Sequence record: PZ019084.1
Direction: 5' to 3' (one strand)
DNA length: 64,000 bases
From: a phage
Positions 24,410 through 42,604 of this stretch are shown in pieces. Made by a program: the position numbers and the translations under genes. Every line of letters starts with the position of its first letter. Position 1 is the first letter of the stretch. The notes beneath the pieces were generated by a model. It worked only from the letters and a program-made list of their open reading frames with translations. It was not told the origin of the DNA and did not search any database.

Positions 24410-24430
24410 CAGGTGTATTTATATCAGTCT
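24410..24430 (-). promoter_or_regulatory. late promoter (TATAAATA) for soc
   Basis: plus tatttata at 24416-24423 gives TATAAATA on the minus strand about 32 nt upstream of soc ATG. Confidence 0.6.
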
Positions 24431-24597
24431 TCAATGAAAACTTGTGCTAGGAATTCGTGTTCATCATGAATTTGTTTATATAAAGCCATTACAGCATTTA
24501 TATTAGAGCTATCTACTTTAAGCTGATAAGCATACCACTCGTGTAAATTAATTAAAGCTTTTTGTCGTCTAATAAATTCTTCTTTGGATATTTTCAT
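24424..24597 (-). CDS. hypothetical small protein (~57 aa)
   Basis: ATG overlaps stop of upstream ORF (ATGA); hand-translated MKISKEEFIRRQKALINLHEWYAYQLKVDSSNINAVMALYKQIHDEHEFLAQVFIED. Confidence 0.35.
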   Translation of the reverse strand: MKISKEEFIRRQKALINLHEWYAYQLKVDSSNINAVMALYKQIHDEHEFLAQVFIED

Positions 24598-24794
24598 TTT
24601 GAATGCTCTATAATTAATTTTAAGGCTTCTTCACTGACAAAAATTTCATCAAGACCTTCTTCTACACCCCAATCAACCACACGAAGCTGATTAGATAAGA
24701 GCTCACATACGAGCTCCTTGTCATAATTTTTAAATAGCTGGTCAATACGTTTCTTGTGGGCTTTCTTAAGTTGTCGTTTATTTAAACGAGCCAT
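24594..24794 (-). CDS. hypothetical protein
   Basis: 66-aa ORF coupled to gene 56. Confidence 0.5.
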   Translation of the reverse strand: MARLNKRQLKKAHKKRIDQLFKNYDKELVCELLSNQLRVVDWGVEEGLDEIFVSEEALKLIIEHSK

Positions 24795-25312
24795 TAATAA
24801 CCTCGGTCTTGGCGAGCGAAGTTTTCAGCATTTTTCAGATAATAAAGTTTAAAGATTTCTTCAGCCGTAAGACCGAGACCTTGGAACATGTTCAGAACGA
24901 AATGAAGAATATCAATCATTTCGAATTTAATTTCCAACTGGTCTTGTGGAGACAAATCAGTAATTAAAGTTTCACGACGTTCACCATGTTGAGCTTTCCA
25001 TGGCTTCCATACAGCAGATGCATCTTTTTCACCATTGCTCATACCACCAAGAGAAGTCAGAAGTTCGCGGAATTCATCATCAATATAATCTTTTTGATTA
25101 CGCAGCCAATCAACAACTTCGCCTGCAGTAGCCAAATCATCAGGATGACGGTTATATTCAGGTTTATCTTTAGCTAAACGAACCTGCAGAGATTTCTGCA
25201 TATCAAGCATAACCTGCAGCGGGTCTTTTTCATCACCGAGAATATCCCAGTATTCATTTTGAGCTTTATCAGCGCCTTCAATCAGTTGTGAACATTCATT
25301 AAAGTATGCCAT
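24794..25312 (-). CDS. 56: dCTP pyrophosphatase (MazG-like)
   Basis: start set at ATG 25312 (MAYFNECSQLIEG...) with SD aaggaaa, giving ~172 aa like T4 gp56; upstream in-frame extension in ORF track is hydrophobic and lacks SD. Confidence 0.8.
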   Translation of the reverse strand: MAYFNECSQLIEGADKAQNEYWDILGDEKDPLQVMLDMQKSLQVRLAKDKPEYNRHPDDLATAGEVVDWLRNQKDYIDDEFRELLTSLGGMSNGEKDASAVWKPWKAQHGERRETLITDLSPQDQLEIKFEMIDILHFVLNMFQGLGLTAEEIFKLYYLKNAENFARQDRGY

Positions 25313-25383
25313 TATTTTTCCTTTCAATTCATGGGTTAGTAGATTAATTATACAATAAATATATAAAGCAATAAGGAGGACAT

Positions 25384-25584
25384 ATGGTACAAAAATTAAT
25401 GGCACTTGTTAATGCCATAAAAGGTAATAAAAAACGTATAGCTTTTACTATTTCTGCTATGGTAGGAATTTTACTCTGGAATTTTGTTTTATCGCCAATT
25501 GCTATTGCTCATGGTGTTAATATTCCAGTAATTACTCTTGATACATTCGTAGATTTAGCATTTGCTTTAGTTGGGTTAATTTAA
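25384..25584 (+). CDS. small hydrophobic protein, opposite strand to neighbours
   Basis: 66 aa, two predicted TM helices; strong SD aaggagga 5 nt upstream of ATG; fills the 56-61 gap. Confidence 0.4.
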   Translation: MVQKLMALVNAIKGNKKRIAFTISAMVGILLWNFVLSPIAIAHGVNIPVITLDTFVDLAFALVGLI

Positions 25585-26609
25585 ATCTTAGCATATTTAG
25601 ATAGCCGCATTTTAGCCATCAACCCTTGGGCAATATTATTTTTCATATATTCCATAATTTGTTCAGGGGTTGCACCTTCCTTTCTAATCATATCATTAAC
25701 ATCTTTTGATTTCCAGGGAGATTTGTCCCAAAACATAACCCTTTCTCCTGCATCAACCAATTTAGTCATTCGTTTAATAGTGTCAGGGTGACGAGGTTCA
25801 TTATCTAAAACCCACACACGTCTATCTTTAAATGGAACAATTTCTAGGTCTAATTGACCACCCGTAATAGCTATACCATTTTCAATAAAAAGTGAATCTA
25901 TAGGTCCTTCTAGAACATATACATCACCATCTTTGACTCGTTCAACTCCATAGATTTTTGTTGCCTCAGGATAAGCTTTGATGGTGATATATTTTTGAGG
26001 AGCATCTTTCTTTAATGCACGTCCTTGAAAAGACTCAGCTTTTCCATTAGCATTATAAATTGGAATAACAAGACGAGGCTCAGGTATTTCCTTTTTATAT
26101 GTTCCTGGCGCTATACTATTAACTAATTTAGGCCATTCGGTTGTAAACCAAAGATATTTCCATTTATCCTTTGGAATACAACGAGCTTTTACGTATTTTA
26201 TAATTGGATGGTCTTCCGTCAGTTTATCTAATCTAATGCATGACGGAAGAGATTTAATTATTTTCTTCTCAGGTTGTTTAGGAAGTTCTTTAGGTTTTTC
26301 TACTGGACGACTTTTACCTTTTTCTTTTCTTATTTCAAAGATATACTCACGATATAAATCAGGTTCAAACTCCTTTAAATATATTCCGATTGGTGCATGA
26401 TAGTTGCAGTTATAACAATGAATATTTCCTTCATTATTATCACCATAATACCATCCACGGGCTTTATTTTGGTCGGTTTTTGAATCTCCACAAACGGGGC
26501 ATCTAAACCGTAATTTAAAAGTTGAACTATTATTTACTTGTGCGAATTTAGGTAAATGAGCCAATGCACGGTATGCAAACTCATTATCAATCCAAGGTAT
26601 TGATGACAT
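25581..26609 (-). CDS. 61: DNA primase
   Basis: 342 aa, same length as T4 gp61; N-terminal zinc-binding CPVCGDS...CYNC and TOPRIM region. Confidence 0.9.
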   Translation of the reverse strand: MSSIPWIDNEFAYRALAHLPKFAQVNNSSTFKLRFRCPVCGDSKTDQNKARGWYYGDNNEGNIHCYNCNYHAPIGIYLKEFEPDLYREYIFEIRKEKGKSRPVEKPKELPKQPEKKIIKSLPSCIRLDKLTEDHPIIKYVKARCIPKDKWKYLWFTTEWPKLVNSIAPGTYKKEIPEPRLVIPIYNANGKAESFQGRALKKDAPQKYITIKAYPEATKIYGVERVKDGDVYVLEGPIDSLFIENGIAITGGQLDLEIVPFKDRRVWVLDNEPRHPDTIKRMTKLVDAGERVMFWDKSPWKSKDVNDMIRKEGATPEQIMEYMKNNIAQGLMAKMRLSKYAKI

Positions 26610-39963: not shown

Positions 39964-40155
39964 TTAGTCATAATAATCAGTAACAGTCCAAGCTTCATTC
40001 CTGTTGGACATTATTTTCGTATATTCTGATTTAAATGCATTCTTAAGCATAGATTCAGTAACTATATGCTCTTCATTAGAAAAATTATTTCTCAGAATAT
40101 ATCGTTTTATTTCAGGAATAGTTAATAGATGCTGTCCAGTTGAATATTCTGCCAC
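39964..40155 (-). CDS. hypothetical protein (45.2 position)
   Basis: 63-aa ORF. Confidence 0.5.
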   Translation of the reverse strand: MAEYSTGQHLLTIPEIKRYILRNNFSNEEHIVTESMLKNAFKSEYTKIMSNRNEAWTVTDYYD

Positions 40156-40165
40156 AGTTCCTCCG

Positions 40166-40173
40166 TATAAATA
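40166..40173 (+). promoter_or_regulatory. late promoter motif TATAAATA upstream of HNH endonuclease gene
   Basis: exact TATAAATA on plus strand about 33 nt upstream of ATG 40207, with SD aagga. Confidence 0.55.
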
Positions 40174-40206
40174 TGTTTATCACTCGCTGTATCAAAAGGA
40201 TATGTT

Positions 40207-40923
40207 ATGAATTATAAACTAATTTATGAAAAGTTAATCTCTAATGCTAAATCTCGAAAACTTGATTGCTATACTGAATCTCATCACATTATACCACGCT
40301 GTTTAAATGGTAGCGATGACGCTTCAAACTTAGTAGATTTAACACCAGAAGAGCACTATGTAGCTCATCAACTTTTAGTAAAAATTTATCCTTCTGAACC
40401 AAAATTAGTCTATGCTGCTAACATGATGACAGTTTCTACGAAATACGCTAAACGTAACAATAAAACTTTCGGCTGGATTCGTCGTAAACTCTGGGAAATA
40501 GAAAAGAATAAAGAGTTCTCCCAAGAGACACGAAAGAAAATGTCCGACGCAGTAGCTAATAAAGCAAGACTAACTTGTCCACATTGCGGTAAGTCTGGAT
40601 TAAGCGGGAATATGAATCGATGGCATTTTGATAACTGCCCAAATCACCCCAATCCTAAAGTTAGACCGCCAATGTCTAAAGAACACAGAAATAATATCTC
40701 AAACGGGCTTAAAGCAATCGTTCTTGAAGAAACATCATGCGAATTCTGCGGAATGATAGGCAAGAAATGCGTTATCGCAGCGCATAGAAATTTCTGCAAG
40801 AAAAATCCAAATGGACGCAAGAAAACTGAAAAGACTGGTACTTGCGTCCATTGTGGTAAAGTTACCACGTTCGGAAATTTATCAAGATGGCATAATGATA
40901 ATTGTAAATATAAACCTAGCTAA
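40207..40923 (+). mobile_element. free-standing HNH homing endonuclease gene
   Basis: 238 aa; N-terminal HNH motif (ESHHIIPRCLNGSDDASNLVDLTPEEHYVAHQ) and repeated CxxCGK...RWHxDNC zinc-ribbon modules; opposite strand to flanking genes. Confidence 0.8.
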
Positions 40924-42604
40924 TCTTAGCTAAACTAAATCTACCAACTTTTTCCATTTGAATGTGCTGACCATATTCCTGTGGGTCATGGTCTTTATGC
41001 GAAATTATGAAGAAGTTGGTATCCTTCAAACCATCTAAAATTTTAGCCACATTTTTAATACCTTCAGCATCAAATGCACCGTCATACACTTCATCAAGAA
41101 ATAAACAACTTATTTTAACACCTGAAACTTTTTCAGCAATATCACGCCAAGTAAATAAAAGAGCAATATCAATTCGTGCTTTTTCACCTTGACTAAATGA
41201 AGCATAACTAAAATCTTCACGACCACGGGATTTAATTGTCTCATTAAATTCTTCATCTAATGTAAACACATAATCCGCTTCCATTATTTTAAGATAATGA
41301 TTAATCTGCTTATTAAATAATGGAATGTACTTTTTAATAATAGCACCTTTAATACCAGAATCTTTGAGCATATCAGTCAAAATTCCTCTATGGTATTTTT
41401 CCATTACTAAATTAGTTTTTGTCTTAACAATTTTATCAAGTTCTTCTTGAAGCAGTGCTATTTCATCAGCATGGTCAATAAACTCAGATGATGCTTTTTC
41501 TATAGCTGCTTTAACTTTTTTAGCTTTATCTACAGTCGTGATTAGAGATTGCTTTTTATTGCGAATATCATTCGCCAACGTCTGCTGGGTTTTAATATTA
41601 TCTCGGTATTCATCAACGAGAACTTTTAAATTATCACGATGTGTTGAAAGCTGTTCAAACGAATGCGTGCATTCAGAAACTTTATCTTTAATTTTAGAAA
41701 CAACTTTATCACCGGAACTTAATTGTGACAAACAGGTTGGACATAATCCACCTTCGTGATACATATTAATGACTTTATTATACGAGTCAATTTTTGATTT
41801 AATTAAAAATGCTTCTTGACCGATTTTATTAAATGCATCAGTCGGGTCTTCATCCAAAACAATATTAACTAATCTTTCATTAGCTTCTTCTATTTCCGAT
41901 TTTAGCGTTCTAGCTTCTTTTGCCAAATCATCATACATATTCTGCAGACGAGTAAGGTTATCACCGGTTAATTTTTTCTGACGTTCAACGTTATCATTAT
42001 ATATTTTAATTTGTTGGATAATACTATCTTTTTTAACATCAAGCACTTGGTTTTGTGAATTTAATTCACGTATTAGTGCTTTATTAAGCTTATCCATTTC
42101 AGCTAATGTTCCTACCTCGAGTAGGTCTTCGACAAGCTTTCTTCTTGCAGGAGTGGATAAGCCCATAAAAGGGGTATATCCAGCCGTGCCGAGTACGACG
42201 ATCTGTTTGAAACTGGCGTATGACATTCCGATAAGCTGTTCAAATTCTGCTTGGAAATCTTTACTGCTGGCAGATTCATTAAGACGTGTACCGTTAACGG
42301 TGATTTCGAAAACGTTTGGTTTTTGTCCTCTTTTGATATAGTACTTTTTCTCATCATATTCCATCCACAGTTCAACTAAAAGTTCTTTCTTATTTGTACT
42401 GTTTATTAATTGGCCTTTCTTTACATCACGAAATGGCTTGCCAAAAAGCCCAAATGTGATGGCTTCTAACATAGTAGACTTACCACCGCCATTTCGCCCA
42501 GTAATAAGAGTTTTTTGAACCTTATCTAGTTGAATGTCAATAGGATTTCCACCTACTGACATTATATTTTGATACCTAACTCGGTTTAGTTTAAAATTCT
42601 TCAC
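40916..42604 (-). CDS. 46: recombination endonuclease subunit (Rad50/SbcC-like)
   Basis: 562 aa; N-terminal Walker A GRNGGGKST, coiled-coil middle with CPTC zinc hook, C-terminal signature/Walker B. Confidence 0.9.
   Translation of the reverse strand: MKNFKLNRVRYQNIMSVGGNPIDIQLDKVQKTLITGRNGGGKSTMLEAITFGLFGKPFRDVKKGQLINSTNKKELLVELWMEYDEKKYYIKRGQKPNVFEITVNGTRLNESASSKDFQAEFEQLIGMSYASFKQIVVLGTAGYTPFMGLSTPARRKLVEDLLEVGTLAEMDKLNKALIRELNSQNQVLDVKKDSIIQQIKIYNDNVERQKKLTGDNLTRLQNMYDDLAKEARTLKSEIEEANERLVNIVLDEDPTDAFNKIGQEAFLIKSKIDSYNKVINMYHEGGLCPTCLSQLSSGDKVVSKIKDKVSECTHSFEQLSTHRDNLKVLVDEYRDNIKTQQTLANDIRNKKQSLITTVDKAKKVKAAIEKASSEFIDHADEIALLQEELDKIVKTKTNLVMEKYHRGILTDMLKDSGIKGAIIKKYIPLFNKQINHYLKIMEADYVFTLDEEFNETIKSRGREDFSYASFSQGEKARIDIALLFTWRDIAEKVSGVKISCLFLDEVYDGAFDAEGIKNVAKILDGLKDTNFFIISHKDHDPQEYGQHIQMEKVGRFSLAKIS

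What the first reader, a model, noticed from the sequence alone, without database searches (positions are those of the whole stretch)
25313..25584. No dam-sized gene between 56 and 61; a small plus-strand membrane ORF sits there
As I recall the T4 map, the DNA adenine methyltransferase gene lies between 56 and 61. Here the interval is only about 270 nt and holds a 66-aa hydrophobic ORF on the opposite strand with a near-consensus SD (aaggagga). The phage may lack Dam modification, and the small ORF may be a real antisense-oriented accessory gene.
Basis: partly seen in the sequence, partly recalled or inferred. Interest (0 to 1): 0.4.

Follow-up and report, generated by a model that had tools for sequence, protein, structure and literature searches.

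The report
T6-type dam-less site with dam.1
This T4-like phage has the same gene layout as classical phage T6: the optional DNA methylase cassette is simply absent, and the small membrane-protein gene beside the primase gene is a conserved, already annotated gene (dam.1) that T4 and T2 also carry next to their methylase, so the finding is ordinary.

Summary
Gene 56 (24794-25312, -) and gene 61 (25581-26609, -) are 268 nt apart. There is no dam, and a 66-aa hydrophobic ORF (25384-25584, +) follows TAAGGAGG.

The ORF does not replace dam. T4 and T2 carry the same ORF between dam and 61. It is annotated as dam.1 in T4T and T6 and as RB32ORF030w in RB14, and it belongs to PHROG 2024.

The ORF is found in about 690 phage records from Tequatrovirus, Mosigvirus and Dhakavirus, always convergent with 61. 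It is under purifying selection (dN/dS about 0.1-0.2). In four of five lineages a T4 late-promoter motif (NATAAATA) lies 19-22 nt before its ATG. It most likely encodes a late-expressed, two-helix inner-membrane protein. Its function is untested.

Dam is a presence/absence polymorphism at this site:
- T2 type: a restriction-endonuclease-like gene plus dam.
- T4 type: dam plus a remnant of that gene.
- T6 type: empty.

The window is T6 type. About 64% of Tequatrovirus records lack T4-type dam. The complete genomes of T6 and of the closest relative at this locus encode no D12 methyltransferase. The phage therefore probably lacks its own Dam, but 64 kb cannot prove that.

Verdict: already known, low interest.

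The parts
24794..25312 (-). Gene 56, dCTPase/dUTPase (172 aa). This is the T6/RB-type allele, 74% identical to T4 gp56.
   Evidence: ORF list; PHROG 173 E=1e-46 and Pfam dUTPase_2; tblastn comparison with T4 and other loci.
25347..25372 (-). Middle-promoter-like site for gene 56 on the minus strand. It has a MotA box ATTGCTTTA (25372 to 25364), an 11-nt spacer, then TATAAT (25352 to 25347). It corresponds to the promoter annotated P(M) 16.53 in the T4 record X01416.
   Evidence: Read directly from the minus strand; T4 annotation of a mot box plus -10 upstream of 56/69. Function is inferred, not tested.
25354..25361 (+). T4 late-promoter-like motif AATAAATA, the A(-13) variant of TATAAATA. It lies 22 nt upstream of the ORF's ATG. 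The predicted transcription start is near 25367.
   Evidence: The same motif sits at the same spacing in T4 and T2 (GATAAATA), Mosigvirus (AATAAATA) and Dhakavirus MX01 (perfect TATAAATA). A(-13) occurs in 9 of 50 T4 late promoters (PMC2988020), and -13 is poorly conserved in T4-like phages (PMC1524935). NATAAATA is depleted in the window (4 observed vs 13.9 expected; 3 vs 9.9). The other ORF-proximal copies precede t, soc, gene 49 and a homing endonuclease.
25372..25379 (+). Shine-Dalgarno sequence TAAGGAGG, 4 nt before the ATG.
   Evidence: Sequence. AGGAG/GGAGG is conserved upstream of every homologue examined.
25384..25584 (+). dam.1 (also named RB32ORF030w; PHROG 2024). It encodes a 66-aa protein with three parts: an N-terminal amphipathic helix with a basic cluster (net +5 over residues 1-20); hydrophobic helix 19-42 with the conserved LWNF..P motif; and, after the loop HGVNIP, a C-terminal hydrophobic helix 48-66 with conserved D53 and D57.
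   Evidence: PHROG 2024 E=5e-31; 100% identical protein in ime09 and SHFML-26; dN/dS 0.1-0.2; alignment; AlphaFold2 model with pLDDT 80 and helices 2-12, 16-42 and 52-63; hydropathy and charge.
25581..26609 (-). Gene 61, DNA primase (342 aa). It is convergent with dam.1 and the two stop codons overlap.
   Evidence: ORF list; PHROG 47 E=8e-107; 98% identical to T4 gp61.

Best explanation
Two independent, ordinary features sit side by side.

(1) The junction between gene 56 and dam.1 is a variable site. In T-even phages it is either empty or occupied by a two-gene cassette. The cassette is a 186-aa protein with a type II restriction-endonuclease fold (called X here), followed by the Dam GATC adenine methyltransferase.
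- T2 and about 154 Tequatrovirus records carry X plus dam.
- T4 carries dam plus a remnant of X.
- T6 and this window carry neither.
The phage of the window therefore most probably makes no Dam of its own. Any GATC methylation of its DNA would come from the host enzyme; that last point is inference from general knowledge.

(2) The 66-aa ORF is dam.1, a conserved gene of Tequatrovirus, Mosigvirus and Dhakavirus that always lies tail to tail with primase gene 61.
- Inferred expression: gp55-RNA polymerase starts late in infection at the AATAAATA motif (25354-25361), about 17 nt upstream of the ATG. The strong TAAGGAGG site then drives translation.
- Inferred product: the protein inserts into the inner membrane with its basic N-terminus in the cytoplasm. 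Helix 19-42 spans the membrane. The acidic, hydrophobic C-terminal helix either spans back or lies at the periplasmic face.
- Function: not known. My best guess is that it acts on the cell envelope late in infection, for example on lysis timing. It has nothing to do with Dam.

Shown: the layout, homology, conservation, selection and motifs. Inferred: transcription timing, translation, topology and function.
For: Layout and homology
- T4 has dam between 56 and 61. It also has the same 66-aa ORF, unannotated in NC_000866, between dam and 61.
- T2 has the order 61 / ORF / X / dam / 56.
- T6 has 56 / 'Dam.1' / 61, the same as the window.
- T4T annotates the ORF as dam.1 and RB14 as RB32ORF030w.

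Distribution
- tblastn finds the ORF in 693 phage records: 503 at 80% identity or more (Tequatrovirus) and 190 below 60% (Mosigvirus).
- Dhakavirus MX01 has a 66-aa PHROG 2024 member at the same place.
- An exhaustive profile search of 1.84 billion representative proteins found only 6, so the family is narrow.

Coding status
- Pairwise dN/dS is mostly 0.1-0.2. Synonymous sites are saturated between genera while 50-68% amino-acid identity, length (65-66 aa) and motifs are retained.
- Chance ORF probability is 0.56%.

Late promoter
- NATAAATA lies 19-22 nt before the ATG in the window, T4, T2, L012, L013, Mosigvirus and MX01, where it is a perfect TATAAATA.
- The motif is depleted in the window and otherwise precedes t, soc, gene 49 and a homing endonuclease.
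- Literature on variation at -13: PMC2988020 and PMC1524935.

Membrane protein
-.

Dam polymorphism
- T4-type Dam (90% identity or more) occurs in 182 records, against 502-503 Tequatrovirus records.
- X occurs in about 154 records, including T2.
- T4 keeps codons 159-186 of X as a remnant.
- X plus dam also occur together at a different locus in a Klebsiella phage, so they travel as a pair.

No D12 methyltransferase
- None in the window, in the complete genome of pSe_SNUABM_01 (98.9% identical at this locus), or in complete T6.
Against: - No expression data were found for dam.1: no transcript 5' end, ribosome footprint or peptide. Literature searches for its names returned nothing.
- One lineage (L007) has no recognisable NATAAATA upstream.
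- In T6 the first codon is ATT rather than ATG, so the exact start, or the need for the first five residues, is uncertain.
- In the window the late-promoter motif lies inside the spacer of the minus-strand gene 56 promoter. Part of its conservation here could be owed to that promoter.
- The C-terminal helix carries two conserved Asp residues, which is unusual for a membrane span, so the topology is uncertain.
- Absence of Dam from the rest of this phage's genome is not shown. Five to nine records, among them ECO07P2, which is close to the window over 20-44 kb, carry another D12 methyltransferase between nrdA and nrdB.
Confidence: 0.85

Rival explanations
1. One reading: in this phage a small antisense accessory gene occupies the place of dam. 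On this view the ORF is an alternative cargo of the locus, specific to dam-less phages.
For: In the window the ORF is the only thing between 56 and 61. It is not annotated in the T4 reference record NC_000866, which makes it look new.
Against: T4, T2 and the dam-carrying loci L012 and L013 all hold the same ORF together with dam. Its presence is independent of dam in 693 records. It is annotated as dam.1 in T4T and T6.
Confidence: 0.02
2. The ORF is not translated. On this view the stretch is conserved because it carries cis-acting signals: the end of the gene 61 transcript, promoters for dam or 56, and the nearby replication origin oriA.
For: A terminator-like hairpin on the minus strand (25418 to 25399) lies inside the 5' end of the ORF. 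Minus-strand promoters overlap the ORF's upstream region in both T4 and the window. oriA is annotated close by in T4. No direct expression data exist.
Against: - Substitutions are concentrated at synonymous sites (dN/dS 0.1-0.2). The reading frame, its length and its amino-acid motifs survive saturation of synonymous sites across three genera.
- The Shine-Dalgarno sequence and start are conserved.
- The hairpin is not conserved outside Tequatrovirus.
- The sequence upstream of the ORF differs completely between dam-carrying and dam-less phages, yet the ORF itself is unchanged.
Confidence: 0.05
3. The phage does methylate its own DNA, because a Dam-type methyltransferase is encoded elsewhere in the roughly 105 kb that lie outside the window.
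For: T4_ev240, ECO07P2 and a few other Tequatroviruses carry a 263-aa D12 methyltransferase (Pfam PF02086, E=1e-23; 33% identical to T4 Dam) between nrdA and nrdB. ECO07P2 is among the closest records to window 20000-44000. Dam also sits at other loci in more distant T4-like phages, for example RB43 and Klebsiella phages.
Against: That second gene occurs in only 5-9 of about 500 Tequatrovirus records. The complete genomes of T6 and of pSe_SNUABM_01, both with the window's layout, have no D12 methyltransferase by tblastn or by profile search.
Confidence: 0.1
4. A sub-hypothesis on function: dam.1 is a holin- or antiholin-like lysis protein, as one database record labels a homologue.
For: - The protein is small, has two hydrophobic helices, and its signals suggest late expression.
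- Its promoter and Shine-Dalgarno arrangement is almost the same as that of the holin gene t in the same window: AATAAATA, 18 nt, ATG.
- UniProt names the vB_EcoM_OE5505 homologue 'Holin'.
Against: - The label has no experimental basis that I could find.
- The window already encodes the canonical T holin (Pfam Phage_holin_T, E=2e-117), and close relatives annotate rI and rIII.
- The protein lacks the charged C-terminal tail usual in holins.
- It has no Pfam, NCBIfam or PADLOC hit and no structural match to known holins.
- The possible dual start (M1/M6) is not conserved.
Confidence: 0.15

Closest known systems
dam.1 of phages T4T (HM137666.1) and T6 (MH550421.1), also named RB32ORF030w in RB14; PHROG 2024
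   Same: It is the same gene. The position (convergent with 61), length and sequence match. The protein is 94-95% identical to the T4 and T4T copies and 100% identical to those of ime09 and SHFML-26.
   Different: Nothing of substance. Every database copy is a 'hypothetical protein'. The T6 copy is annotated from Met6 (61 aa) because its first codon is ATT.
The 56 / dam.1 / 61 layout of classical phage T6
   Same: Identical gene order with no dam and no X. The whole T6 genome has no D12 methyltransferase. The window is collinear with T6 at about 95% identity over about 60 kb.
   Different: The window is not T6 itself. At this locus it is closer to pSe_SNUABM_01 (98.9%). From memory, not verified here: early biochemical work reported a phage-induced DNA adenine methylase for T2 and T4 but not for T6.
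T4/T2 Dam, a D12-class GATC N6-adenine methyltransferase (Pfam PF02086)
   Same: Only the chromosomal address. In T4 and T2 it sits between 56 and dam.1.
   Different: It is absent from the window. In T2 and most carriers it is preceded by a restriction-endonuclease-fold gene, of which T4 keeps only a remnant.
Small two-helix phage membrane proteins of lysis cassettes (class II holins and pinholins, such as S21 of phage 21)
   Same: Size (60-70 aa), two hydrophobic helices joined by a short loop, and probable late expression. The comparison to S21 is from my own knowledge.
   Different: No sequence or profile similarity, no charged C-terminal tail, no adjacent lysis genes, and T-even phages already have the unrelated T holin.
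T4 late genes driven by TATAAATA-type promoters inside early regions (t, soc, the late promoter of gene 49)
   Same: The same motif class at the same distance from the start codon. Within the window the motif occurs almost only in front of such genes.
   Different: A at -13 instead of T. This is the commonest variant, 9 of 50 T4 sites according to PMC2988020. Activity has not been measured.

Membership tests
dam.1 / RB32ORF030w family (PHROG 2024) | Significant full-length sequence match to the family profile | tested here: met
   PHROG 2024, E=5.4e-31, residues 2-66 aligned to profile positions 1-65 of 65. The protein is 100% identical to those of ime09 and SHFML-26.
dam.1 / RB32ORF030w family (PHROG 2024) | Conserved position: tail to tail with primase gene 61, on the strand opposite the early genes | tested here: met
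   Window, T4, T6, T2, Mosigvirus-like loci, L007 and Dhakavirus MX01.
T4 late gene (gp55-dependent) | TATAAATA-type motif at -13 to -6, a few tens of nt upstream of the start codon | tested here: met
   AATAAATA at 25354-25361, 22 nt before the ATG. It is conserved at 19-22 nt in four of five lineages and is a perfect TATAAATA in MX01. The variant at -13 is accepted in the literature.
T4 late gene (gp55-dependent) | Transcript that appears late and depends on gp55, gp33 and gp45 | not testable with these tools
   No transcript or 5'-end data for this strand were found.
Dam, D12-class N6-adenine DNA methyltransferase (PF02086) | A gene with the D12 methyltransferase domain between 56 and 61, or anywhere in the window | tested here: not met
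   tblastn with T4 and E. coli Dam gave a best E of 1.8. A profile built from four Dam proteins hit only the T4 control.
Dam, D12-class N6-adenine DNA methyltransferase (PF02086) | A D12 methyltransferase elsewhere in the phage genome | not testable with these tools
   Only 64 kb of the genome is available. The proxies T6 and pSe_SNUABM_01 have none. A rare second Dam-like gene exists in a few relatives.
Holin (class II / pinholin-like) | One or more transmembrane helices in a small protein | tested here: met
   Two 19-residue windows have mean hydropathy of 1.87-2.01, and AlphaFold2 predicts helices at 16-42 and 52-63.
Holin (class II / pinholin-like) | Charged, hydrophilic C-terminal cytoplasmic tail | tested here: not met
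   The protein ends in ...FALVGLI. Net charge from residue 43 to the end is -2, with no basic residue.
Holin (class II / pinholin-like) | Sequence or profile membership of a known holin family, or linkage to lysis genes | tested here: not met
   No Pfam, NCBIfam or PADLOC hit. The neighbours are the replication and nucleotide-metabolism genes 56 and 61. The canonical T holin is at 912-1568.
Holin (class II / pinholin-like) | Membrane permeabilisation that triggers lysis | not testable with these tools
   This needs expression and lysis assays.

The most novel reading that the evidence does not exclude
dam.1 is a functional late gene that has been overlooked because the T4 reference annotation omits it. 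On this reading it encodes a two-helix inner-membrane protein with a measurable role late in infection, such as lysis timing, lysis inhibition, or another envelope or membrane-associated step. Its late transcript has no obvious terminator before gene 61. It could therefore also run antisense into the primase gene and help to shut primase expression down late in infection.
Probability: 0.2. Interest if true: 0.4.

Novelty: already known. Interest (0 to 1): 0.15.

Why it matters
It matters little for this window. The layout is that of phage T6 and of most sequenced Tequatroviruses, and the ORF is an annotated hypothetical gene.

Two modest points remain.
- A small, strongly conserved, probably late membrane protein of the best-studied phage family has no known function. 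It is also missing from the T4 RefSeq record, so T4 transcriptome and proteome studies that rely on that annotation will not report it.
- Dam in T-even phages behaves as part of an optional two-gene cassette rather than as a fixed gene. This is worth knowing when phage DNA methylation is used as a marker, or when these phages are chosen for work on restriction or defence systems.

Tried and rejected
Searches that gave nothing for the small protein
- Pfam, NCBIfam and PADLOC: no hit.
- Foldseek against PDB: nothing.
- Foldseek against viral models: only the family itself plus two weak 63-aa hits at 27% identity in Karamvirus-type phages. I could not place those at this locus. Karamvirus ZX13 and Pseudotevenvirus GAP161 have other, same-strand ORFs between 61 and 56 and no homologue there.
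- The afdb50 library was not available.
- IMG/VR yielded only 7 loci.

Literature
- Searches for 'dam.1' and 'RB32ORF030w' found nothing.
- A search for ribosome profiling or small proteins in T4 listed no paper on phage T4 among the twelve shown.
- The T4 genome review, which I requested as PMC150520 (an id recalled from memory), is not held.
- I found no paper documenting the dam polymorphism or T6's lack of a methylase. That point stays marked as recollection.

Ideas rejected
- A lambda-like dual start (Met1/Met6): Met6 is not conserved.
- The minus-strand hairpin at 25418 to 25399 as a conserved terminator: it does not hold outside Tequatrovirus.
- A simple deletion of T4 sequence as the origin of the window's 71-nt spacer: the junction is mosaic, not a clean deletion.

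Full report
**What is in the sequence**

The window is a T4-like (Tequatrovirus) genome segment. Around the finding every long ORF runs on the minus strand in the T4 order: modA/modB region, mrh, soc, 56, 61, 61.1, 61.2, sp, 61.4, dmd, 41.

- Gene 56 (dCTPase) is at 24794-25312 and gene 61 (primase) at 25581-26609, both minus strand.
- The 268 nt between them hold a single plus-strand ORF, 25384-25584, 66 aa.
- The ORF is preceded by TAAGGAGG, which ends 4 nt before the ATG. Its stop codon overlaps the stop codon of gene 61.
- A complete ORF this long arises in 0.56% of shuffles of the interval.
In NC_000866, dam lies between 56 and 61.
- No Dam-like sequence exists anywhere in the 64 kb.

**The ORF is not a substitute for dam**

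- T4 itself has a 309-nt gap between dam and 61. That gap contains the same 66-aa ORF, differing at 4 conservative positions, with its own AAGGAGG. NC_000866 does not annotate it.
- T2 has it too.
- It is annotated 'dam.1' in T4T and in T6, and 'RB32ORF030w' in RB14 and vB_SsoM_113. It forms PHROG 2024.
- tblastn finds it in 693 phage records. Of these, 503 are at 80% identity or more (Tequatrovirus) and 190 at about 50-55% (Mosigvirus).
- A Dhakavirus (MX01) has a 66-aa PHROG 2024 member in the same place.
- In every case the ORF is tail to tail with gene 61, while the other flank varies (56, dam, or another gene).
- More distant T4-like phages (Karamvirus ZX13, Pseudotevenvirus GAP161) have unrelated same-strand ORFs there.
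- An exhaustive profile search of 1.84 billion representative proteins found only six. The family is narrow and confined to this phage group.

**Is it a real gene?**

- Pairwise Nei-Gojobori estimates give dN/dS mostly between 0.1 and 0.2 within Tequatrovirus.
- Between genera, synonymous sites are saturated (pS about 0.75) while pN is about 0.25-0.32. Length stays at 65-66 aa.
- The motifs AIKGNKK, LWNF.L.P, HG.N.P and TLDTFVD persist.
- The ORF overlaps no other gene, so this signal is not borrowed from another frame.
- I found no transcript, ribosome or peptide data, and no paper that names the gene. Translation is therefore inferred, though strongly.

**How it is probably expressed**

- Twenty-two nt upstream of the ATG lies AATAAATA (25354-25361), the T4 late-promoter box with A instead of T at -13.
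- According to the review of T4 late transcription, 32 of 50 listed T4 sites are perfect and 9 carry A at -13 (PMC2988020). In other T4-like phages -13 is poorly conserved (PMC1524935).
- The box recurs at the same distance in T4, T2, L012 and L013 (GATAAATA, 19-21 nt), in Mosigvirus-type loci (AATAAATA, 21-22 nt), and as a perfect TATAAATA in MX01 (21 nt). This holds even though the surrounding upstream sequence is unrelated between dam-carrying and dam-less phages. One lineage (L007) lacks it.
- In the window these octamers are depleted: AATAAATA occurs 4 times against 13.9 expected, and TATAAATA 3 times against 9.9.
- Five of the nine NATAAATA copies lie 18-33 nt before an ATG ORF. These are the holin gene t, soc, gene 49 (endonuclease VII), a homing-endonuclease gene, and this ORF.
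- T4 late transcripts are known to run in either direction (PMC2988020), so a plus-strand late gene inside an early region is normal.
- On the minus strand the same 71-nt spacer carries a MotA box (ATTGCTTTA) and TATAAT in front of gene 56. This matches the middle promoter annotated in the old T4 record X01416. The two promoters overlap back to back.

**What the protein looks like**

- Residues 1-18 form an amphipathic helix that ends in a basic cluster (net charge +5).
- Residues 19-42 are a clear membrane span.
- After the loop HGVNIP, residues 48-66 are again hydrophobic (mean hydropathy 1.87) but carry two conserved Asp.
- AlphaFold2 gives three helices at pLDDT 80.
- There are no hits in Pfam, NCBIfam, PADLOC or PDB.
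- One UniProt entry calls a homologue 'Holin'. I found no basis for this label. The protein lacks a charged C-terminal tail, and the phage has the canonical T holin.
- My working model is a late inner-membrane protein with its N-terminus in the cytoplasm, acting on the envelope. This is a guess; I put the specific lysis-protein reading at about 15%.

**What the missing dam means**

- Only 182 phage records hold a T4-type Dam at 90% identity or more, against 502-503 Tequatrovirus records. About 64% of sequenced Tequatroviruses therefore lack it.
- In most carriers dam is preceded, with overlapping stop and start, by a 186-aa gene (X, PHROG 8706). X is present in about 154 records, including T2.
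- T4 retains only codons 159-186 of X.
- X and dam also travel together at a different locus in a Klebsiella phage, and in Dhakavirus MX01.
- The site therefore has three states, and the three classical phages display them: T2 has X plus dam, T4 has dam only, and T6 has neither.
- The window is in the T6 state.
- The complete genomes of T6 and of pSe_SNUABM_01 (98.9% identical to the window at the locus) contain no D12 methyltransferase, while T4 and T2 controls are detected.
- A second, 33%-identical Dam-like gene lies between nrdA and nrdB in five to nine records. That region is outside the window.
- I put the chance that this phage encodes some Dam elsewhere at about 10%.

**Verdict**

The implied connection is wrong: the ORF is a conserved neighbour of primase that T4 and T2 also have. 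Absence of dam is the commonest state of a well-sampled variable site. Nothing here is new. The ORF is already annotated, its protein is identical to database entries, and the layout is that of T6. Interest is low. The residual value is that dam.1 is an uncharacterised, probably late membrane protein missing from the T4 reference annotation.

Noticed in passing
[not shown]
   Followed up: partly
L001 4127-4238 (T4, between dam and dam.1): T4 keeps a remnant of that endonuclease-like gene: codons 159-186, 95% identical and frameshifted. T4's solitary dam therefore looks like the result of an internal deletion of about 540 bp, relative to the T2-type cassette.
   Followed up: partly
L017 2992-3783 (T4_ev240, between nrdA and nrdB): A second D12-class adenine methyltransferase (263 aa; Pfam PF02086 E=1e-23; 33% identical to T4 Dam) occupies the nrdA-nrdB spacer, where T4 and T6 have mobE. 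It occurs in five to nine records, including ECO07P2.
   Followed up: partly
window 40166-40923 (+): A plus-strand 238-aa homing-endonuclease gene (PHROG 655) has a perfect TATAAATA 33 nt upstream. It is inserted between the gene 45 region and gene 46, and is absent from pSe_SNUABM_01 (no match for window 40150-40935).
   Followed up: partly
window, whole 64 kb: The late-promoter octamers are strongly depleted. AATAAATA occurs 4 times against 13.9 expected, and TATAAATA 3 times against 9.9. All 100 shuffles in each test had at least the observed number. This suggests selection against stray late promoters in the early region.
   Followed up: partly
window 24794-25312 (-) and 24424-24794 (-): gp56 exists as two alleles, and the window type is only 74% identical to T4 gp56. 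The alleles assort independently of dam (L013 has the window allele with dam; L010 has the T4-like allele without). The window has two small soc.2-like ORFs where T4 has the homing endonuclease segF.
   Followed up: no
L026 1732-1746 (T6, start of dam.1): In T6 the first codon of dam.1 is ATT instead of ATG, and the record annotates the gene from Met6 (61 aa). Either ATT initiates or the first five residues are dispensable.
   Followed up: no
window 25399-25418 (-): A terminator-like hairpin followed by a T-run lies on the minus strand, about 160 nt downstream of the gene 61 stop and inside the 5' end of dam.1. It is identical in T4 but is not conserved in Mosigvirus or Dhakavirus.
   Followed up: partly
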